Origin: an uncultured Alphaproteobacteria bacterium
Lineage (GTDB): Bacteria; Pseudomonadota; Alphaproteobacteria; Rhizobiales; Rhodomicrobiaceae
NCBI GenBank assembly: GCA_963842775.1
Contig: CAWJHQ010000013.1
Coordinates: 162,896-226,895, forward strand
Direction: 5' to 3'
DNA: 64,000 nucleotides
Positions 4,863 through 52,503 of this stretch are shown piece by piece; position 1 is the stretch's first letter, and the number at the start of each line of letters is the position of its first letter. The position numbers and the translations under genes were made by a program. The notes below the pieces were generated by a model that was given only the letters and a program-made list of their open reading frames with translations, was not told where the DNA came from and searched no databases.

Positions 4863-5591
4863 TCAAGCCAGGCCCGGCAGCGGCGCGGCGCCGAACAGCC
4901 AGGGATGCAGGTGCAGCATGATCGCCCAGAGCAGCACCGCCACGCCGATGCGCCACCAGCCGATCTCGGCGATGCTGAGTCTCGCGCGCCCTTGCAGCAC
5001 GGCAAGCATCGGTATGAACGAGGTTTTTGCGGCAAACCGGTCCCAGCTTGCGCCGTAGGTTTCGGATTTTCGCCATTCCTGCAGCACCGCGCCGCCGATA
5101 GCCGTCAGCGCGAATAGGCCGAAAAACCAAAACCCTCGCCAATTGGGCTGGCTGATCAGATGCGCGATGCCCCACAGCCCGAAACTCCACATCAGCGGAT
5201 GGCGGGTGACGGCGAAAATCCCTTGCGCGACGCCGGGACGTTCAAGCAGCGCGCCTTTATTTGGCAAAGTCGGATTGGGCGAGGACAGGCCGCCGACGAA
5301 CAGCACGGCCGCGCCAAGGATGATGAGCGCCTTGAGCCAGGGCCACCAGATCGGGAAGGCCCAAAGCACCGGGTCGGGCGCGGCGGCATTGAAGGCGCGC
5401 ACCCAGACCCAGATCACGATCAGCGAGACGAGCGAGAACAGCCCCATATAGGGCCCCTCGCCGATTGCTCCGACCACCGTTCGACGGAGCGGCGTCGCAG
5501 GAACGATGTGGATGCCCAAGAACACCAGCCCCGCAATTGCAAGCGTCATCATGTCGACCCCCCAATATTGTTGCGTCAGATTAAACACCAA
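4863..5591 (-). CDS. NnrU family membrane protein (isoprenylcysteine/phospholipid methyltransferase-like fold)
   Basis: A multi-TM protein with the conserved TRHPLMWSFGLWGIAH motif typical of NnrU. The start could be the internal MMTLAIAG at ~5551. Confidence 0.6.
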   Translation of the reverse strand: MVFNLTQQYWGVDMMTLAIAGLVFLGIHIVPATPLRRTVVGAIGEGPYMGLFSLVSLIVIWVWVRAFNAAAPDPVLWAFPIWWPWLKALIILGAAVLFVGGLSSPNPTLPNKGALLERPGVAQGIFAVTRHPLMWSFGLWGIAHLISQPNWRGFWFFGLFALTAIGGAVLQEWRKSETYGASWDRFAAKTSFIPMLAVLQGRARLSIAEIGWWRIGVAVLLWAIMLHLHPWLFGAAPLPGLA

Positions 5592-5857
5592 TTCCCTCGC
5601 CAGGCCATGCCCGCGAGGCTTTGCTTGCCGTCTCCTTCATTTTCCGCCCCCCTTGAGGGACGGCGCGGGCGGGATTGTATTTCTCGAAAAGCCGATCTCT
5701 TGGTGAACGAATCATTGAGGATCGGCCTGGCTCCGGAGGCGGCCAACGCTGCTCGGCCGCAACGCCCATGAATTCGGGGGATGTCATGGACGCAGCGGCT
5801 GATTTCAGCGTGGAGCTCGGTTAAGCATGCACCTTCGTCAAAACAGCGAATGTGGCA

Positions 5858-6070
5858 TCACGGAAGGCTATAGCCTTTGCCGCCCCAGTCGCCCCATATT
5901 CCGTCGCCATCGATGTTGAACGATCCGACGCCGTCTATTCCAAGCGAGAAGAACAATCCGTCTTCGGCCAGCTTGACTCTCAATGGGCCGAAGCTCGCCT
6001 TGAGGGCCCCGGATACGTCCTCCATCTCGTCAGAGGTGAGATTGCGGATTTCTGTAATGTCTTGCGTGTT
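5858..6070 (-). CDS. Small secreted peptide precursor (70 aa) with a double-glycine-type leader and a glycine-rich core (bacteriocin/microcin-like)
   Basis: MNTQDITEIRNLTSDEMEDVSGA|LKASFGPLRVKLAEDGLFFSLGIDGVGSFNIDGDGIWGDWGGKGYSLP. The leader fits the GG-leader consensus: hydrophobic residues at -4, -7, -12 and -15, Glu at -8, Gly at -2 and Ala at -1. A GAGGAG RBS lies 5 nt upstream. Codon usage is atypical and GC is lower than in flanking genes. Confidence 0.5.
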   Translation of the reverse strand, partial: NTQDITEIRNLTSDEMEDVSGALKASFGPLRVKLAEDGLFFSLGIDGVGSFNIDGDGIWGDWGGKGYSLP

Positions 6071-6240
6071 CATGCGTGCGCTCCTCGATCCATTCGACTG
6101 CCAATGGTGGCGGTTGCCATCGGCCGTGATTGTTGCGGATCGCAAAGCGTCGGGCAGTTACCTGGGAAACAAACTGTGATTAGCGGCCGGCCAATGTCGC
6201 CCGTCCGGCCATGGGTCCCTCACGGTCAATCGCGTCCATG

Positions 6241-6390
6241 TCAGGCGTGGACCTGCGAGCCGCCTTGTCCATGACGCACGCGATGCCACTTCCTGCGCTG
6301 CCGGCGGACATACACTGCGATGTTCAGCGAGGCCGACACGATGCCAACGCCGTAGCATACGATCTGTGAAGTGAGCAGGAGAGTGTTCAT
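6241..6390 (-). CDS. 49-aa small membrane protein (one TM helix plus a basic C-terminal tail), candidate immunity or partner protein
   Basis: MNTLLLTSQIVCYGVGIVSASLNIAVYVRRQRRKWHRVRHGQGGSQVHA. An AAGGA RBS lies 9 nt upstream. It is in the same orientation as the GG-leader peptide and ~170 bp upstream of it. Confidence 0.4.
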   Translation of the reverse strand: MNTLLLTSQIVCYGVGIVSASLNIAVYVRRQRRKWHRVRHGQGGSQVHA

Positions 6391-6651
6391 GGTCGTAGGT
6401 TCCTTCGGACCAGGCTTATGGCGATTGCAGCGCCGGATTGAGATGAATTCAAAGCTGGGCTGGCGAACGCTCCTGTTCAATCAAACCCACGCTCTGCAAG
6501 AATGACGAACGGCGCACGGCAAGGCCGACAGGCCCACGCGCTTTTTTTGCTGTGTCGTCGGTCTCAAGCAGAAGGCGGAGACTTTGGGTGGTGGGTGACG
6601 TGAGGCCATGAGGTCGGGCGCGATGGCGCCCGTGGGGCACCCGGCCGCGTG

Positions 6652-7816
6652 TTAGTCTTGCACCAGCCGCGCCTGTTGTTCGGACCAGGGATGCTCCATT
6701 GTCAGGGCAACGTAAGCGGCGGTCGGCCGGTCATATCGCGACGCAATTCGCGCCAGCTCGCTGTCGAGCGATCGGGCCGGCGCCTCGCTTTGCGGCTGAA
6801 GCACGATGTCGGCGCCGGCGGCTGCGACGGTTGCGTCCGGCCGCAGGCGGAGTCCGTGCCGGGTTTGCACAACCCCGTCAGTCTCGCCGATGAGGCTCAG
6901 CCTGCTCAGCTCCGTCCGTGAATAGGCATCGACCATGAAGCCGAGCGCCATTTCGTCGACATTTGGGGCGACCTTGATGCCGATGGTTTCGTGCCGCCAG
7001 AAGCTCAGCCTGTTGCGAACATAGGTCTTGCGGTGCTCGGCGTTGAGCCGGAAAAACGAGCTGCGATGGCGAGCGTCCCAGTCGGGCGCGCCCAGGCGCA
7101 TGGCCAGCTTCTCGGCCTCGGCGCGGCCGCTGATCGCTTCGACCAGCGCAATCATCAGGGGAACCGAGGAGGTGATGCCGGTCGATGTCGCGATGTCGCG
7201 ATCGACCACATAGCGCCGGTCGGGTACGTATTCCATCGTCGGGTTTTCCGTCTGGAGCTGCTTGATGGAATACCAATGGCCGGTGGCCCTGCGTCCCTCG
7301 AGCAATCCTGTGGCCGACATTGTCAGCGAGCCGTTGCAGATGGAAACGATCTTTGCGCCCTTCCCATGCTGGGCCTTGATCCAGGCGATGATCGCCGGAT
7401 CGTCGCGCGGCTCCATTGCGGGAATGACGACGTAGTCGGCCCCCTCGGGATGCGACGCGTCGAACTGAGCCGTCGTCGCTTGCGGCTCTATGCTGCCGGC
7501 CGGATAGAGCCGGATCGGATCAGGCTCGGTCGGCAACGACGGTCACGTCCGCGACACCCGATTCCACAAGCACTCCATAAGAGCTGAGCAGGTCGGAGAC
7601 CTCCGTGCCCTTGTTCAGCGCGAGAATTGCGATGGCTGGCCGTGGGCGCTTGGGCGGTTTCAGGGCCTCGATCGTCTGCTGGTGCTCGGCGGGCGACACT
7701 CGATCAGGCGGAAGCGATGGGGTGGGTTCGCCGCTCGCCGCCAGCAGGATCGGCAGGCTGGCGACGGCAAGCACCGCGACCCCTGCAAGACAAAGGATCA
7801 GAGTTCGTATGCGCAT
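6652..7816 (-). CDS. DJ-1/PfpI family protein with an N-terminal signal peptide. It is split into 7520-7816 and 6652-7536 by an apparent frameshift near 7525.
   Basis: MRIRTLILCLAGVAVLAVASLPILLAASG...PRPAIAILALNKGTEVSDLLSSYGVLVESGVADVTVVA, then ...VVIPAMEPRDDPAIIAWIKAQHGKGAKIVSICNGSLTMSATGLL, which is the DJ-1/PfpI nucleophile-elbow region. A GGAGG RBS is present. Confidence 0.7.
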
Positions 7817-9260: not shown

Positions 9261-9654
9261 TGCTCGCGTGAGCGGACGATAGTCCCGCAGCCGGGGCGAC
9301 AGCTGTGCCTGGGGATAAGGCATGGTATGCCAGCAGTACAATGCGGACGGTTCGCCAAAATCAGCCCGTCGGCTCAAGCCAATCTCGCGAGCCAAGGTGA
9401 TGGTTCGAACGCGGCGATTTCATCGGAAGGTGACTGCGTGGGCAGGCGTCGCAGACCGACTTCACGGTTTTTCGCCTTTGTTATTTCTTGCACAACGGTT
9501 ACCCATTTCGTTAGTAGCGGCGGCGCATCGTTTGCGAGCAGCTCGGGCATTCGGCCTGGACTTCTTAAGTTGCATTAGGGTAGCGAGTTGGTCACACATG
9601 TATTGCGTCCGAGCGTTCTTCTTCTCCAATTTCCGAATTCCAACACTGGCGCCG

Positions 9655-11418
9655 ATGGGGATCGCTGCCTTCATCATCGCGGGAGGGCTTTCCAGCCTCG
9701 CATTCGCGCAGGCTTCGCTGACCGCCACCACGACCACCGTCGCTTCTTCGCTGGATCGGAGTATTCCGGGGCAGTCCATCGACTTCACAGCAACCGTGAC
9801 AGCTCCCCTTGGTACGCCAACCGGCGTGGTGATCTTTGCGGACGGTGGGAACAGGCTGGGCTCGGCTGCCCTGGAGGCAGACGGCAGAGCAGTGCTTTCC
9901 GCTCCCCCGCTGGCGGAGGGGAGCCACGCGATTACTGCGCGATATGAGGGTGATGCGCTCTTCGCCGGGTCTGTATCTCCAGTGCTGACGCAAATAGTCC
10001 TGCCGGCTACCGCTGCCCCAGATCAAGTTCCGGCGGGGACTGTCCTGCTCGCCGTGATCGTATTCGTAGCGTTGTTGCTGCTGCTGCGACGCTCCGTTTT
10101 CCTGTTGATCGGGCGGATATTCAGACTACTCTGGCGACTGATCGTGCGCATCGTCAGGCTGGTTGCAAAGCCGACCGTCCGGCTCCTGCGCTCGCTTCGC
10201 TTAATCTCCAAAGCGCAGCCCAAAGGCCAACCCGCCGCAGCGGTACAATCGGTTGTGGGACTGAGCGCGGTGGCGTTGGCCCAAGCTTTTTCCAGCGAAA
10301 CCGAAGAGGCAATCGCCAGGAATTTTGATCCCGCCTCGATCAGAATACAGCGCAATAAGCAGTTCTTCTGCACTTGGCTCTCGCCCTTGGGCGATCCGTA
10401 TGTGCCTTACGACAACGCAAAGGCGGAGGCGGACCTCAAAAGCGCAAAGCATTTCTTCAGCGCGGAGATTCCAACGGAATCGAACGCCCTGAATTTGTAC
10501 GACGATATAGATGGCGCGTTTGTCGTGAATTTGCTGAAGGACAGCGATAACTCCTGTTTTTACGTGCTTTCAGAGTTCAAGAAGGTGATCAACGGCAATG
10601 TCATCGTGCTAGCGGTGCTGTTTTCATTCATTGTTTCGGTTGTCGCGGTTGCAAATATACTATTATCCACGTCGATTGATTTCTATTTAATGTTTGGCCT
10701 CGAAAAACATCTGCCTATTCACGCAGAACTGTTCGGCCGGAATTTCGAACTCAGCGCAACGCCGGATTTCTTCAATAAAATGGTGTTCGGCAGCCTGTCA
10801 TGTTTGGCAGGGTATTTCCTGATGTGGTTCTTCTATTACACTGAATATGCTCAATTTCAGCGGAATAACGGGCAGCAGATGAGCAATTTTCTTGTCGAAT
10901 ATCTTGCCAGTATCAACAGCAATTTCCGCCAAATCCATACGAATGCGACCCAGACCATCCTTGAGGAAAAAGACGTCCTCGAAATGAAGCATGACACCGC
11001 GCTGTGGATAACAAATCTACAGTGGACGGCGTTCCGGGCATTCTTTGTTGAGCATTTTCTTAGAAATATGCTTTTTCAGATTCGCCGCAACTGCAGTTAC
11101 TATCTGTTGCTCATTCCTCTCTGTTTTATCCTGGCAATCCTGGTTACCGCGGCAGCGTTTGACATAAGACAACTTAGCGTTTTAGACCTAAATTCTAATG
11201 TATATCAGCAGAATAGTTTCTATCCATTCTTCGCGTGGCTGCTTTTTACCTATTACGGATATTTGAGCAAGTCCGTGTCCTTCATATGGGAGTCGATCGA
11301 AAAGCGCAGATGGTTCAGGTTCCAAGAGCTGAACCTGCAGGACGCGATGACGCGGATCATGGACTCTTACGTGGTACAGCTTGACCGCTGGCGGAGCATG
11401 ATGAAGTCGCGAGGGTGA
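9655..11418 (+). CDS. Chimeric membrane protein: signal peptide, a bacterial Ig-like (Big_3-type) exodomain, a TM helix, an Arg-rich amphipathic segment, then a low-GC C-terminal module with four predicted TM helices. Function unknown.
   Basis: MGIAAFIIAGGLSSLAFAQA signal peptide. The Ig-like motif is ...TTTTVASSLDRSIPGQSIDFTATVTAPLGTPTGVVIFADGGNRLGSAALEADGRAVL...HAITARYEGDALFAGSVSPVLTQIV. The TM helix is VLLAVIVFVALLLLL, followed by RRSVFLLIGRIFRLLWRLIVRIVRLVAK. The region from ~10.35 kb to the stop drops to ~45% GC against ~65% upstream. The ORF is continuous from 9322, and the exact start is uncertain (9598 or 9655). Confidence 0.55.
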   Translation: MGIAAFIIAGGLSSLAFAQASLTATTTTVASSLDRSIPGQSIDFTATVTAPLGTPTGVVIFADGGNRLGSAALEADGRAVLSAPPLAEGSHAITARYEGDALFAGSVSPVLTQIVLPATAAPDQVPAGTVLLAVIVFVALLLLLRRSVFLLIGRIFRLLWRLIVRIVRLVAKPTVRLLRSLRLISKAQPKGQPAAAVQSVVGLSAVALAQAFSSETEEAIARNFDPASIRIQRNKQFFCTWLSPLGDPYVPYDNAKAEADLKSAKHFFSAEIPTESNALNLYDDIDGAFVVNLLKDSDNSCFYVLSEFKKVINGNVIVLAVLFSFIVSVVAVANILLSTSIDFYLMFGLEKHLPIHAELFGRNFELSATPDFFNKMVFGSLSCLAGYFLMWFFYYTEYAQFQRNNGQQMSNFLVEYLASINSNFRQIHTNATQTILEEKDVLEMKHDTALWITNLQWTAFRAFFVEHFLRNMLFQIRRNCSYYLLLIPLCFILAILVTAAAFDIRQLSVLDLNSNVYQQNSFYPFFAWLLFTYYGYLSKSVSFIWESIEKRRWFRFQELNLQDAMTRIMDSYVVQLDRWRSMMKSRG

Positions 11419-47132: not shown

Positions 47133-47565
47133 TGCCGCGTTGCGGCTTTGGGTTGTAAGCTCAAAGCCATGCAGCGCCATGCCAGGTCCGGCCCTCGCGC
47201 CGGACCTGGCATATTTGGCCTTTGGCCGGCGTGTCGGCCATCAGCGGCGAACGGCGGCCCGAGCCGGCAGGCGTGTCCGAAGCTTTGGCGGGAGCGTTCA
47301 TCGATCCTGGTCCCCGCGAGGCCGCTTGCCAAACGGTTTAGGCCACGCGACAGTGCATCGCCCAATGATAGCGTTCGGCGCGGCGAATTGGCTTGACGGG
47401 GGACAAGAGCATGATCCGCAAGAGCAGGTGCTGGTTTTGCGATAAGGATCATGCTCAGCATAGAGCTGGAGCGCCGTTCTGATTCCATTCGAACGGAATG
47501 GGCTCAGGGTGCTGGCAAAGCCATTCAACGGTGCCGCGGAATCGCTGCGGCAAGGGGATGAGTCC

Positions 47566-48684
47566 ATGCGGTTGTTGATCGAGAAAAGTGCACTGCTGAA
47601 ATCCTTGCAGCATGTGACCAGCGTGGTCGAACGGCGCAATACGATCCCGATCCTGGCCAATGTGTCGCTGCGCGCCGAAAGCGACATGCTGCATCTGAAG
47701 GCCACGGACCTCGACATCGAGGTGACCGAGGTGGCGAAAGCCGAGACCGCCGCTCCGGGCGGCACCACGGTTCCGGCGCATACGCTGCACGATATCGTCC
47801 GCAAGCTGCCCGAAGGCGCCCAGATCGAGCTTGCCGGCAAGGGCGACGAGGGCCGCCTGGCGATCACGGCGGGCTCTTCCCGCTTTCTGCTCGCCTGCCT
47901 CCCCGCCGACGATTTTCCCGATCTCGGGCTTGACGGCATGTCGCATCGCTTCGAATTGCCGTCGCAGGATCTCAGGCGGCTGATCGACAAGACGCGCTTC
48001 GCCGTTTCCACCGATGAGACGCGCTATTATCTCAACGGCATCTATCTCCACGCCATCGAAGCGGATGGCGGCTGGTGCCTCCGGTCGGTGGCCACCGACG
48101 GCCACCGCCTGGCGCGCATGGATGTCGCTCTGCCCGAGGGCGGCATGGGGATGCCCGGCATCATTCTGCCGCGCAAGACGGTGCAGGAATTGGCGAAATT
48201 GCTCGCCGATCACGGCGATACCGTCGCCGTCGAACTCTCGGCGAACAAGATCCGCTTCACCGTCGGCAATGTGGTGCTGACCTCCAAGCTGATCGACGGC
48301 ACTTTCCCGGACTATCAGCGCGTCGTGCCGCAGGGTAATGACAAGATCATGCGGGTTGATAATGGCGTCTTCATCAGCGCCGTGGATCGCGTCTCCACCC
48401 TGTCCAGCGAGAAGGGCAGGGCGGTCAAATTGAACATCAGCGAAGATCGGCTGGTGCTTTCCGTGAATAATCCCAAATCCGGCTCCGCGACCGAGGAATT
48501 GAGCGTCGATTATAGCGGCGAGCCACTGGAAATCGGCTTCAACGCTCGCTATTTATTGGATATATCCGCGCAGTTCGAGGGAGACCGGGCGATGTTCAAG
48601 CTCTCCGACCCCAGCGCGCCGACCGTGCTTCAGGATGAGAAAGATTCTTCAGCCCTCTATGTCTTGATGCCGATGCGGGTCTGA
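47566..48684 (+). CDS. dnaN: DNA polymerase III beta sliding clamp
   Basis: MRLLIEKSALLKSLQHVTSVVERRNTIPILANVSL... is full-length. Confidence 0.95.
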   Translation: MRLLIEKSALLKSLQHVTSVVERRNTIPILANVSLRAESDMLHLKATDLDIEVTEVAKAETAAPGGTTVPAHTLHDIVRKLPEGAQIELAGKGDEGRLAITAGSSRFLLACLPADDFPDLGLDGMSHRFELPSQDLRRLIDKTRFAVSTDETRYYLNGIYLHAIEADGGWCLRSVATDGHRLARMDVALPEGGMGMPGIILPRKTVQELAKLLADHGDTVAVELSANKIRFTVGNVVLTSKLIDGTFPDYQRVVPQGNDKIMRVDNGVFISAVDRVSTLSSEKGRAVKLNISEDRLVLSVNNPKSGSATEELSVDYSGEPLEIGFNARYLLDISAQFEGDRAMFKLSDPSAPTVLQDEKDSSALYVLMPMRV

Positions 48685-48705
48685 GGCCGTCGGTATCCGC
48701 CTGGT

Positions 48706-48778
48706 GCATCGATCCAAATGAGGCGACAGGCCGGAGCTGGGAAGAGCCGGGCGCTGGATGCATTGGTGCGCTAGTGCC
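48706..48778 (+). repeat. Copy C (first hairpin only) of the two-hairpin element, ~40 nt upstream of recF
   Basis: TGCATCGATCCAAATGAGGCGACAGGCCGGAGCTGGGAAGAGCC...TGGATGCATTGG. Confidence 0.5.
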
Positions 48779-48817
48779 TCCCACGCGAGTGAAATGACTT
48801 CAGCCTGAGAGAATGTT

Positions 48818-49982
48818 TTGGCGGCATTGAGTTCATATGGCCTTCCGGCTGAGAGCGATCGGGGGAGCGGCATCCAACTCTGGCTTGCCCGGCTGAACCT
48901 CGCCAACTTCCGCAATTATACGCAAGCCACACTGCATCTGGAGGCACGTTCCGTCGTGCTGACCGGGCATAATGGCTCCGGCAAGACGAATATTCTCGAA
49001 GCGATCTCCATGCTGGCGCCCGGCCGCGGCCTTCGCGGCGCTCCTTTCACCGATCTGGCGCGGCTAAAAGGCGATGGCGGCTGGGCCGTCTCGGCGCGGC
49101 TCTGGCGCGACGGCGCGGAGATTGCGTTGGGCACCGGCCAGCAAGTCGGCGCGGGCGGCGCATCGTCGGGGCGAATCGTCAAGATCGACGGCGAACAGAC
49201 CGGCGGGTCCGGCGCCCTTGGCGAGTATTTGCAGGTTCTGTGGCTCATTCCGGCCATGGACGGCATGTTTACCGGCGCGGCATCCGAACGCCGCCGCTTT
49301 CTCGACCGGATGGTCGCGACGTTCGACGGCGCGCATCGCACGCGTCTCAACGCATTCGACCGCGCCATGCGCCAGCGCAACCGGCTGCTGGAAATCGGCG
49401 AGCGCTCCGAGCGCTTTTTCGCCGCGATCGAAAGCCAGATGGCGGAAACCGGCACCGCGATCGCCGCCGCGCGCATCGAGACGGTGGATCGGCTCGGCTG
49501 CGTGGCCACGGCGGCGCCCAATGCGGCAAGCGGCGCGTTTCCCCACGCTATCCTCGCCTTGGAGGGGACGCTGGAAGCGGCTTTGCGCGATCTGCCTGCG
49601 GTCGATGTCGAGGATGATTATGCACGCCAGCTCGCCGCGGGCCGCGATCGTGACCGCGCCGCCGGCCGCACCCTCACCGGCCCGCATCGCGCCGATCTCA
49701 GGGTGGCGCATGGGCCCGAAAGACATGCCTGCCGGCCTCTGCTCGACGGGCGAACAGAAGGCGCTGCTCATCGGCCTCGTTCTCGCACATGCGAAAGCGG
49801 TGAAGGAGGCGCGTGCGGGCCTTGCGCCGCTGCTGCTTTTAGACGAAATTGCAGCCCATCTGGACGAGCCGCGCCGCGCCGCCCTGTTCGAGGAAATCGA
49901 GCGGCTCGGCGCGCAGGCGTGGATGACCGGAACTGACAGCGGAAGTATTTCTGTCGCTTCAGGAAAAGGCCGAGTTTCTTAA
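48818..49982 (+). CDS. recF: DNA replication and repair protein RecF, split into 48818-~49720 and ~49740-49982 by an apparent frameshift
   Basis: LANFRNY...[17 protein letters not shown] (Walker A) ... then [19 protein letters not shown]...[11 protein letters not shown] (signature and Walker B). Confidence 0.9.
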
Positions 49983-50063
49983 CGTCGCCGAAGGCGCTAT
50001 AACACATCTCGGCAAACGCGCTGGCCGGCTTCATGTGACGCAAACGAGATTGAGTTAGGATAG

Positions 50064-52503
<2,440 letters not shown>

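What the first reader, a model, noticed from the sequence alone, without database searches (positions are those of the whole stretch)
5858..6390. Double-glycine-leader, glycine-rich peptide gene plus adjacent 49-aa membrane protein in a ~1-kb low-GC gap (candidate bacteriocin and immunity pair without a cognate transporter in the window)
The 70-aa product MNTQDITEIRNLTSDEMEDVSGA|LKASFGPLRVKLAEDGLFFSLGIDGVGSFNIDGDGIWGDWGGKGYSLP has a 23-aa leader. The leader matches the GG-leader consensus at every diagnostic position: hydrophobic residues at -4, -7, -12 and -15, Glu at -8, Gly at -2 and Ala at -1. The core is Gly/Asp-rich and Cys-free, like class II bacteriocins or microcins, and is not lanthipeptide-like. 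It has a strong GAGGAG RBS. It also uses A/T-ending codons rare elsewhere in the window (aca, gaa, aat, tct, gta, cca, ttg, aga, gga, ata). Just upstream on the same strand is MNTLLLTSQIVCYGVGIVSASLNIAVYVRRQRRKWHRVRHGQGGSQVHA, with one TM helix and a basic tail, the shape of many bacteriocin immunity proteins or small toxins. No C39-peptidase ABC exporter is present within 64 kb, so export would have to be in trans.
Basis: partly seen in the sequence, partly recalled or inferred. Interest (0 to 1): 0.55.

Follow-up and report, generated by a model that had tools for sequence, protein, structure and literature searches.

The report
Stand-alone double-glycine-leader peptide gene cassette
A real, conserved 71-residue gene for what looks like a secreted microcin-type peptide sits in a self-contained ~420-bp cassette found at unrelated sites in a few soil Alphaproteobacteria, while the neighbouring 49-residue membrane protein is an unrelated, widespread gene rather than its immunity partner.

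Summary
About 26 homologous small proteins exist in soil metagenomes and one alphaproteobacterial MAG. The columns that never change are the diagnostic double-glycine-leader positions (L-12, E-8, G-2). Distant relatives end in a true GG and lie in tandem arrays of such peptides. Codon-position and dN/dS statistics show the sense frame is coding, with a constrained leader (0.21) and a freer core (0.56).

The "bacteriocin plus immunity pair" reading fails. The 49-aa membrane ORF is a real gene, but it belongs to its own family of 179+ clusters. It keeps its place near nnrU-lepA in a relative that lacks the peptide, and it is absent from every other peptide locus.

The conserved unit is a ~420-bp cassette (about 5756..6176). 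It holds 100 nt of palindrome-rich 5' non-coding DNA, the CDS and a long 3' hairpin, and it lies among unrelated genes in each locus, including a prophage lysis module and resolvases.

No ABC exporter is in the window or in the other long contexts. No bacteriocin HMM matches.

Best reading: an orphan class II microcin-like precursor exported in trans. It is a new family of a known kind, of modest interest.

The parts
5858..6073 (-). CDS of the 71-aa precursor. Leader codons 1-23 are 6073..6005, ending SGA. The 48-aa Gly/Asp-rich core is 6004..5861. The stop is 5860..5858.
   Evidence: Codon-position differences are pos1 0.255, pos2 0.167, pos3 0.35. dN/dS is 0.21 for the leader and 0.56 for the core. 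The AF2 model has a helix at 14-21 followed by six beta-strands, with core pLDDT 80-90.
6074..6176 (-). Conserved 5' non-coding region, taken to be promoter, operators and 5' UTR. It contains a palindrome (A)CCTG-N5-CAGG(T) at 6160..6173, GGTAAC at 6157..6162, the palindrome TTGCG-ATC-CGCAA at 6133..6145, a degenerate TGAC-N4-GTCA element around 6106..6121, and the invariant RBS GAGGAG at 6082..6087.
   Evidence: Identity between loci with unrelated flanks jumps from about 0.3 to 0.8 at 6176 and stays at 0.74-0.83. Single-nucleotide indels show it is non-coding. There is no RNA covariation, and the fold z-score is -0.27. No Rfam family matches. No sigma-70 consensus is found.
5746..5857 (-). 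Conserved 3' region: a small hairpin just after the stop codon, then a long hairpin of about 16 bp (GCCGCnnCGTCCATGA ... TCATGGGCGTTGCGGC, core about 5756..5799) with no T-tract.
   Evidence: The RNA fold is -49.1 kcal/mol with z = -4.1. The region is kept in L011 and L006, where the peptide C-terminus is deleted. In L026-28 it is cut in its loop and followed by a resolvase gene. No canonical terminator was called.
6241..6390 (-). 49-aa single-TM protein. It is a neighbouring, independent gene and not part of the cassette.
   Evidence: Against the syntenic L012 it shows 6 synonymous and 2 non-synonymous differences. Its family has 179+ clusters with a nearly invariant N-terminal 30 aa. It is present near nnrU-lepA without the peptide in L024 and absent from the other peptide loci.
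6183..6207 (-). GC-rich hairpin between the 49-aa gene and the cassette, probably the terminator of the 49-aa gene. It lies outside the conserved unit.
   Evidence: I1/D1. The only Rfam hit is a weak partial match to this hairpin (E = 3.1).

Best explanation
Window 5858..6073 (minus) encodes the precursor of a new family of double-glycine-leader peptides of the class II microcin / unmodified Gram-negative bacteriocin type.

Proposed mechanism, which is inferred:
- The 23-residue leader forms an amphipathic helix.
- The transporter exports a 48-residue, acidic, Gly-rich, beta-strand peptide of 5.03 kDa that acts on neighbouring cells.

The gene is not part of a local operon. It travels as a self-contained cassette of about 420 bp (roughly 5756..6176). 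The cassette holds a strongly conserved, palindrome-rich 5' control region, an invariant RBS, the CDS and a long 3' hairpin. It occupies unrelated genomic sites, much as a phage 'moron' does.

The adjacent 49-aa membrane protein is an unrelated, vertically inherited small gene.

Shown here: the gene is real and under purifying selection, the leader motif is the most constrained part, the cassette boundaries and variable contexts, and the lack of linkage to the 49-aa gene. Inferred: cleavage, export in trans and antibacterial activity.
For: 1. There are 10 close homologues (58-94% identity, 62-88 aa). Profile and exhaustive searches bring the total to about 26, all small proteins.
2. The invariant columns coincide with GG-leader key positions. 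Distant members P0016, P0019, P0148 and P0150 carry canonical L-S/T-x-x-E-[IL]-x-x-V-[ST]-G-G.
3. L013 holds three GG-leader peptide genes in tandem, one of them a family member. That layout is typical of PCAT substrates.
4. The coding signature favours the sense frame: substitutions run pos3 > pos1 > pos2, and dN/dS is 0.21 in the leader and 0.56 in the core. The competing antisense ORF is broken by stops in L011.
5. AF2 predicts a leader helix at residues 14-21 followed by a compact beta-meander, with core pLDDT 80-90.
6. The same ~420-bp unit is bounded at the same positions in loci whose flanks are unalignable. The neighbours are:
   - nnrU and the 49-aa gene (window)
   - a GH19 endolysin and SRAP (L001)
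   - 6PGD, an SDR and shikimate kinase (L003)
   - DctM (L011)
   - a histidine kinase (L019)
   - an RTX protein (L023)
   - resolvases (L026)
7. One MAG carries two copies.
8. L024, a relative with 80% nucleotide identity across nnrU-lepA, lacks the unit and has two other genes in the same slot.
9. GC3 is 0.69 against 0.79-0.89 in neighbouring genes.
10. From the literature: class II microcins use GG or GA cleavage sites about equally often, are highly diverse in sequence, and PCATs are widespread in Gram-negative bacteria (PMC12219008).
Against: - No PCAT, MFP or any ABC signature lies in the 64-kb window, in the 20-kb contexts of L001 and L002, or in L014 and L024. Pfam annotations on the 10.7-kb L026 context also list none.
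- No membrane immunity gene is conserved within or next to the cassette.
- No Pfam, NCBIfam, PHROG or PADLOC family matches at all, so no bacteriocin or leader model does.
- There is no homologue in 72,556 plasmids or 50,697 phage genomes.
- The family is rare. Nearly all contexts are short metagenome contigs, so co-occurrence with PCATs could not be measured.
- The core is acidic and not markedly hydrophobic, and it lacks the glycine zipper and the C-terminal disulfide seen in several characterised microcins.
- Activity is untested.
Confidence: 0.45

Rival explanations
1. The peptide is exported through a GG-leader/PCAT route, but its role is not killing competitors. It could be a signalling or pheromone-type peptide, or a self-directed autolysis peptide.
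For: - No immunity gene is linked to the cassette.
- The 5' control region is as conserved as the leader, which suggests tight, conserved regulation.
- The core is under moderate purifying selection rather than clear diversifying selection (dN/dS 0.56).
- GG-leader bacteriocin-like peptides that mediate autolysis have been reported in Neisseria (title and abstract of PMC11798529, seen).
Against: - No receptor or two-component partner is conserved next to the cassette, and contexts differ in every locus.
- A 48-aa folded beta core is large for a pheromone.
- Distant relatives sit in multi-precursor arrays typical of bacteriocins.
Confidence: 0.2
2. The product is a small cytoplasmic beta-protein, for example an accessory or 'moron' gene with a regulatory, stress or phage-related role. 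On this view the leader-like motif is a structural helix and not a secretion signal.
For: - No exporter is seen in any available context.
- No bacteriocin HMM matches.
- AF2 gives one compact model that includes the N-terminal helix.
- One copy lies at the end of a prophage lysis module and another beside resolvases.
- The cassette carries its own control region and its own 3' hairpin.
Against: - The invariant residues are exactly the GG-leader diagnostic positions, and distant homologues converge on the canonical LSxxELxxVSGG.
- Tandem arrays of GG-leader peptides occur in L013.
- The first 13 residues and the leader are low-confidence in the model (pLDDT 48-50), as expected for a detachable leader.
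Confidence: 0.2
3. One reading: the 71-aa peptide and the upstream 49-aa membrane protein form a bacteriocin and immunity pair.
For: - The two genes are adjacent on the same strand, 167 nt apart.
- The 49-aa ORF is a real gene with one TM helix. Validated microcin immunity proteins are small inner-membrane proteins encoded next to the toxin (PMC12219008).
Against: - The 49-aa gene lies outside the conserved unit, which starts at about 6176.
- No homologue of it occurs in any of the other peptide loci.
- Its family (179+ clusters) is far larger than the peptide family (about 26).
- L024 has it near nnrU-lepA with no peptide.
- A hairpin separates the two genes.
Confidence: 0.05
4. The conservation is not due to this ORF. 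On this view the region is a non-coding element, or it encodes the antisense ORF 5877..6179 (+), a 100-aa Pro/Ser-rich product.
For: - The antisense frame is open in several loci and gives comparable BLASTP identities.
- Its stop at 6179 lies near the left boundary of conservation.
- The non-coding flanks are as conserved as the CDS.
Against: - The antisense frame shares third codon positions with the sense frame, which is a known source of spurious ORFs in GC-rich DNA.
- Sense position 2 is the most conserved (0.167 against 0.255 for position 1), the opposite of what antisense coding predicts.
- The antisense frame is interrupted in L011 while the sense ORF is intact.
- The ATG and GAGGAG are conserved in nearly all loci.
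- 1-nt indels in the 5' region break any long frame there.
Confidence: 0.03

Closest known systems
Class II microcins of Gram-negative bacteria (MccV/ColV type; the expanded set in PMC12219008 and PMC9746304)
   Same: - A small precursor under 150 aa.
[quoted passage not shown]
- A Gly-rich, anionic, unmodified core.
- A conserved leader with a more variable core.
- Distant relatives with two C-terminal cysteines (P0015, P0016, P0019), as in class IIa microcins.
   Different: - No adjacent PCAT/MFP genes and no linked membrane immunity gene.
- No sequence or HMM similarity to any described microcin.
- The host is a soil alphaproteobacterium.
- The gene travels as a stand-alone ~420-bp cassette.
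- The core in this subfamily has no cysteines.
- Activity is untested.
Cdz contact-dependent glycine-zipper bacteriocins of Caulobacter (CdzC/CdzD; PMC5380434)
   Same: - An alphaproteobacterial host.
- A small protein in the 60-151 aa range with a leader ending G[G/A/S].
- Presumed export by type I secretion.
   Different: - Cdz proteins need one or two uninterrupted GxxxG glycine zippers of small hydrophobic residues. They are about 75% Gly/Ala/Val/Ile.
- The core here is interrupted by Asp, Glu, Lys and Pro, is predicted to be beta-strand, and is acidic.
- No cdzAB-like or cdzI-like genes are nearby.
Dispersed GG-leader precursor genes processed in trans (cyanobacterial bacteriocin loci, PMC3140520; prochlorosin-type dispersed precursors, from my own knowledge)
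   Same: - Precursor genes scattered away from the single transporter or processing locus.
- A conserved leader with variable cores.
- Several copies per genome.
   Different: - Those leaders are long (Nif11 or NHLP type) and their cores are usually modified.
- Here the leader is short (23 aa), and there are no modification enzymes and no Cys-rich core.
Phage 'morons' (autonomous promoter-gene-terminator inserts; from my own knowledge)
   Same: - A self-contained unit with its own control region and 3' hairpin.
- Lower GC than its surroundings.
- Location between unrelated genes, once directly after a prophage lysis module (L001).
   Different: - Most copies are not in recognisable prophages.
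- No homologue was found in 50,697 phage genomes or in IMG/VR.

Membership tests
Class II microcin / double-glycine-leader PCAT substrate | Small ribosomal precursor under 150 aa | tested here: met
   71 aa. Family members are 55-88 aa.
Class II microcin / double-glycine-leader PCAT substrate | N-terminal 15-25 aa leader with consensus L(-12) S/T(-11) E(-8) hydrophobic(-7) hydrophobic(-4) G(-2) G/A/S(-1) | tested here: met
   LTSDEMEDVSGA at residues 12-23. L12, E16 and G22 are invariant and S21 nearly invariant across 17 members. Distant members end in GG.
Class II microcin / double-glycine-leader PCAT substrate | Match to curated leader or bacteriocin HMMs (TIGR01847, TIGR03949, PF10439 and similar) | tested here: not met
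   No NCBIfam hit at E <= 10. The only Pfam hits are unrelated and far below threshold. These are short, mostly Gram-positive-derived models, so the failure is weak evidence.
Class II microcin / double-glycine-leader PCAT substrate | C39-peptidase ABC transporter (and MFP) encoded nearby | tested here: not met
   No ABC signature motif in any long frame of the window, L001, L002, L014 or L024. The large window ORFs scanned belong to other families.
Class II microcin / double-glycine-leader PCAT substrate | PCAT present somewhere in the same genome; leader cleaved and core exported | not testable with these tools
Class II microcin / double-glycine-leader PCAT substrate | Adjacent, co-inherited small membrane immunity protein | tested here: not met
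   The adjacent 49-aa TM gene is not co-conserved. No other ORF is conserved inside the cassette.
Class II microcin / double-glycine-leader PCAT substrate | Antibacterial activity of the mature peptide | not testable with these tools
   Needs secretion and inhibition assays.
Cdz-like glycine-zipper bacteriocins | One or two extended GxxxG zippers of small hydrophobic residues, not interrupted by Pro or charged residues | tested here: not met
   The core is LKASFGPLRVKLAEDGLFFSLGIDGVGSFNIDGDGIWGDWGGKGYSLP. Its glycines are spaced irregularly and separated by D, E, K and P (sequence; criteria from PMC5380434).
Lanthipeptide or other RiPP precursor | Cys/Ser/Thr-rich core and neighbouring modification enzymes | tested here: not met
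   The core has no Cys. Neighbours are NnrU, LepA, DJ-1/PfpI and a CoA-transferase-like ORF.
Type I toxin-antitoxin toxin | Short hydrophobic transmembrane peptide | tested here: not met
   Core GRAVY is 0.10 and pI 4.5, and the prediction is beta-strand with no TM helix. By contrast, the neighbouring 49-aa protein does have this shape.
Integron gene cassette (attC) | Promoter-less ORF followed by attC with R'' RYYYAAC ... R' GTTRRRY, in cassette arrays next to intI | tested here: not met
   GCTTAAC fits R'', but no conserved GTTRRRY lies at the 3' end. The unit has a 100-nt conserved 5' region, and there are no arrays and no integrase.

The most novel reading that the evidence does not exclude
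The ~420-bp unit is a mobile 'microcin moron'. It would be a minimal promoter-leader-core-hairpin cassette that hops between chromosomal sites, prophages and recombinase-rich islands and uses whatever PCAT the host already has.

On this reading the 5' control region plus the leader is the conserved adapter and the core is the diversifying payload. The long 3' hairpin, which is cut exactly in its loop next to a resolvase gene in L026-28, would be the recombination site. That would be a previously undescribed way for bacteriocin payloads to spread without their own export or immunity genes.
Probability: 0.15. Interest if true: 0.55.

Novelty: new member of a known kind. Interest (0 to 1): 0.3.

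Why it matters
Class II microcins were recently shown to be far more widespread and diverse than thought, but soil Alphaproteobacteria are barely represented. Almost all known examples sit beside their exporter and immunity genes.

This family would add an alphaproteobacterial lineage. It would also be a clear case of precursor genes that circulate on their own, with a regulatory region conserved as strongly as the leader. That makes two questions testable:
- whether resident PCATs accept such orphan substrates;
- how a producer tolerates a toxin gene that has no linked immunity gene.

The work also removes a false lead. The adjacent small membrane protein is a separate, widespread, unannotated family.

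Tried and rejected
- **Bacteriocin/leader HMMs and other libraries.** Pfam, NCBIfam, PHROGs and PADLOC gave nothing for either small protein.
- **Rfam on 5400..6800.** The only hit is a weak partial match to a flanking hairpin.
- **RNA structure in the 5' region.** There is no covariation, and the fold is no better than shuffled sequence. A riboswitch or leader RNA is rejected.
- **Promoter and terminator scan.** No sigma-70 promoter or canonical terminator was found. By eye, GG(T/G)AAC-N17-TCCG resembles ECF-type promoters but fits neither the EcfG (GGAAC-N16-17-CGTT) nor the sigma-54 spacing. This is left open.
- **Large-protein hits in the exhaustive search.** The PEGA/PKD, PYRIN and cadherin-repeat proteins, and the PDB 'Pizza' beta-propeller hits, are summed-repeat artefacts.
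- **Foldseek against PDB.** Nothing was significant; best E = 0.32. The afdb50 library was unavailable.
- **Other collections.** Plasmids, phages and IMG/VR hold no homologue. The metagenome scan returned only the syntenic L012.
- **Antisense ORF 5877..6179.** Rejected on codon-position asymmetry and on stops in L011.
- **In-frame upstream TTG start at 6145.** Rejected because 1-nt indels occur in the 5' region.
- **Mobility signatures.** I found no terminal inverted repeats or target-site duplications. The 20-nt repeat flanking the unit (5740-5759 and 6188-6207, 75% identity) is not reproduced in other loci and is probably chance. There is no tRNA in the window. The attC reading is rejected (see membership test).

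Full report
**What is there**

The finding's ORFs are on the minus strand. The peptide gene runs 6073..5858 (ATG 6073..6071, stop 5860..5858), with GAGGAG at 6087..6082. The product has 71 residues, not 70.

Its residues 12-23, LTSDEMEDVSGA, place L, T, E, M, V, G and A at positions -12, -11, -8, -7, -4, -2 and -1, and I at -15.

The predicted mature part is 48 aa, 5030.6 Da and pI 4.5, with 11 Gly and no Cys. The second ORF, 6390..6241, encodes the 49-aa single-TM protein with a basic tail.

The gap between nnrU (start at about 5549-5591) and the DJ-1/PfpI gene (stop 6652) is about 1.06 kb. Its GC content is 57-60%, against 62.5% for the whole window.

**Is the peptide gene real?**

It is real.
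- A word-indexed search of 5.8 billion proteins found 10 homologues of 62-88 aa at 58-94% identity.
- An exhaustive HMMER search of 1.84 billion cluster representatives, plus a profile search, brought the family to about 26 small proteins.
- The large proteins in the exhaustive list are repeat-sum artefacts.

I compared eight distinct coding sequences by codon position. Pairwise differences are 0.255, 0.167 and 0.35 at positions 1, 2 and 3. dN/dS is 0.47 overall, 0.21 for the leader and 0.56 for the core.

An antisense ORF (5877..6179, +) is open in several loci. It shares third codon positions with the sense frame, which is the usual source of spurious ORFs in GC-rich DNA. It would predict sense position 1 to be the most conserved, and that is not seen. 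It is also broken by stops in L011, where the sense ORF is intact.

**Is the N-terminus a double-glycine leader?**

A loose regex hits only this ORF in the six-frame translation of the window. By my estimate that alone is about what chance would give.

The weight comes from the family alignment. With 46% mean column identity, the invariant columns are R10, L12, E16, G22 and G58, and S21 is nearly invariant.

The most distant members carry textbook leaders:
- P0016: ...LTAEEIDGVTGG
- P0019: ...LSPNEIEAVSGG
- P0150...LSADELEAVSGG

On contig L013 the family member P0019 is followed by two more, unrelated GG-leader peptide genes in tandem. That is the usual layout of PCAT substrates.

AlphaFold2 with the 17-sequence alignment gives:
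- a low-confidence N-terminus;
- a helix at residues 14-21;
- a six-strand beta-meander, with pLDDT 80-90 in the core.

Nothing in the PDB resembles the model significantly.

**What is actually conserved: a cassette, not a pair**

BLASTN of the region against all homologous loci shows the same block in each. It starts about 100 nt upstream of the ATG and ends about 100 nt after the stop.

I computed an identity profile over seven loci with unrelated flanks:

| Region (window coordinates) | Mean pairwise identity |
|---|---|
| upstream of about 6185 | about 0.3 (background) |
| 5' non-coding region, from 6176 | 0.74-0.83 |
| leader | 0.81-0.87 |
| core | 0.64-0.85 |
| C-terminal end | about 0.33-0.39 (near background) |
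| 3' element, 5828..5760 | 0.53-0.63 |
| beyond about 5755 | background |

The 5' region has these properties:
- It is non-coding, because it contains 1-nt indels.
- It has no covarying RNA structure, and its fold z-score is -0.27.
- It matches no Rfam family.
- It holds conserved palindromes: (A)CCTG-N5-CAGG(T), TTGCG-ATC-CGCAA and TGAC-N4-GTCA.
- I read it as promoter plus operator sites. This is an inference, and the sigma factor and regulator are unknown.

The 3' region folds into a long hairpin (-49 kcal/mol for 116 nt, z = -4.1). It has no T-tract.
- It is retained in L011 and L006, where the peptide's C-terminus has been deleted.
- In L026-28 it is cut in its loop and followed by a resolvase gene.

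The two flanking elements never occur without the peptide gene in the DNA held here.

**Contexts**

The neighbours differ in every locus:

| Locus | Neighbouring genes |
|---|---|
| window, L012 | nnrU and the 49-aa gene |
| L001 | GH19 + PG-binding endolysin upstream; SRAP, HEPN and an AAA ATPase downstream |
| L003 | 6-phosphogluconate dehydrogenase, SDR, shikimate kinase |
| L011 | DctM |
| L019 | histidine kinase |
| L023 | RTX repeat protein |
| L026 | several resolvase genes and a WD40 giant protein |

One alphaproteobacterial MAG has two copies, one frameshifted and one a 3' fragment.

L024 is a 774-kb contig with 80% nucleotide identity to the window across nnrU-lepA. It has the small membrane gene in the same neighbourhood. 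Two other genes (Metallophos_2 and rubrerythrin/VIT1) lie between that gene and nnrU, and there is no cassette.

GC3 of the peptide gene is 0.69, against 0.79-0.89 in neighbouring core genes.

Together these data say the cassette is an accessory, horizontally moving unit. It is reminiscent of a phage moron. However, no copy was found in phage, plasmid or IMG/VR collections, and I found no terminal repeats or target duplications.

**The 49-aa membrane protein**

It is a real gene. Against the syntenic contig L012 (90% nucleotide identity), its 150 nt carry 8 differences, of which 6 are synonymous.

It is nevertheless independent of the peptide.
- It lies outside the conserved block.
- It has no tblastn counterpart in any other peptide locus.
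- Its own family has 179+ clusters, mostly 57 aa, with a nearly invariant N-terminal 30 residues.
- It occurs without the peptide in L024.

The immunity-partner reading is therefore not supported.

**Exporter**

No ABC signature motif occurs in any long open frame of the window, L001, L002, L014 or L024. The large window ORFs I scanned belong to other families. Whether a PCAT exists elsewhere in the genome cannot be tested with 64 kb.

**Interpretation**

The most likely reading (0.45) is an orphan class II microcin-like precursor. A PCAT encoded elsewhere would cleave it after Gly22-Ala23 and export it.

The literature supports parts of this. GA cleavage sites are as common as GG, sequence diversity is extreme, and PCATs are widespread (PMC12219008).

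The gene fails the Cdz glycine-zipper definition (PMC5380434). It also fails the RiPP, type I toxin and integron-cassette definitions.

The alternatives are:
- an exported peptide with a signalling or autolysis role (0.2);
- a non-exported small beta-protein whose leader-like motif is structural (0.2);
- a non-coding or antisense explanation (0.03).

**Verdict**

This is a new, rare family within a known and recently much-expanded class.

Two features go beyond the ordinary:
- the stand-alone ~420-bp cassette;
- the 5' control region, which is conserved as strongly as the leader.

Interest is modest (0.3).

Noticed in passing
window 6241..6390 (-); L024 6001..6171: The 49-aa protein belongs to a large, unannotated family of about 57-aa single-TM proteins (179+ clusters). 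The N-terminus MNTLLITTQIVCYGVGIVSASLNIATFVRRR is nearly invariant and the basic tail varies. The gene is syntenic with nnrU-lepA. It has the shape of a type I toxin or small membrane regulator, and no Pfam, NCBIfam, PHROG or PADLOC family matches.
   Followed up: partly
window 9322..11418 (+): A 698-aa ORF with one Big_3_5 Ig-like domain and a long TM-rich C-terminal half. GC falls to 0.43-0.47 at about 10500..11400 in a 62.5% GC window, so the gene is probably foreign DNA.
   Followed up: no
L013 100..926: Three different GG-leader peptide genes lie in tandem on a 928-nt forest-soil contig. They are P0019, METDMNVEEKNEIRELTVAELEVVSGG|MKWD..., and MNVQAEIRELTATEVCAVSGG|ATPSPGG...
   Followed up: partly
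L026 5547..6494 (also L027, L028): This copy of the cassette ends in the loop of its 3' hairpin and is followed at once by a split resolvase/invertase gene. Two more resolvase genes lie within 5 kb. This may hint that the hairpin is a recombination site.
   Followed up: partly
L001 7544..14106: In MAG CAVSXH01 the (frameshifted) cassette lies 1.4 kb downstream of a GH19 + PG_binding endolysin. It is followed by SRAP, HEPN and AAA_16 genes, which looks like a prophage end or defence-island setting.
   Followed up: partly
L023 3..887 (-): The divergent family member P0009 lacks the conserved 5' region. It sits beside an RTX (HemolysinCabind) repeat protein, which is a type I secretion substrate.
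   Followed up: no
P0007 (L011 1953..2141): JGI names this 62-aa family member 'ABC-type siderophore export system fused ATPase/permease subunit'. That cannot be right for a protein of this size and is probably an annotation artefact.
   Followed up: no
window 5900..5960 (core residues 43-62): The core motif slGIDGVGsFNIDxxGvW weakly resembles the beta-hairpin of NHL-type beta-propeller blades. The hits are to designed 'Pizza' propellers, at about 2.9 bits per repeat, significant only when summed. Whether the 48-aa peptide could oligomerise like a single blade is pure speculation.
   Followed up: no
window 47509..52259: dnaN, recF and gyrB lie here, so the window is close to the chromosomal replication origin. 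There are no tRNA genes anywhere in the 64 kb.
   Followed up: no
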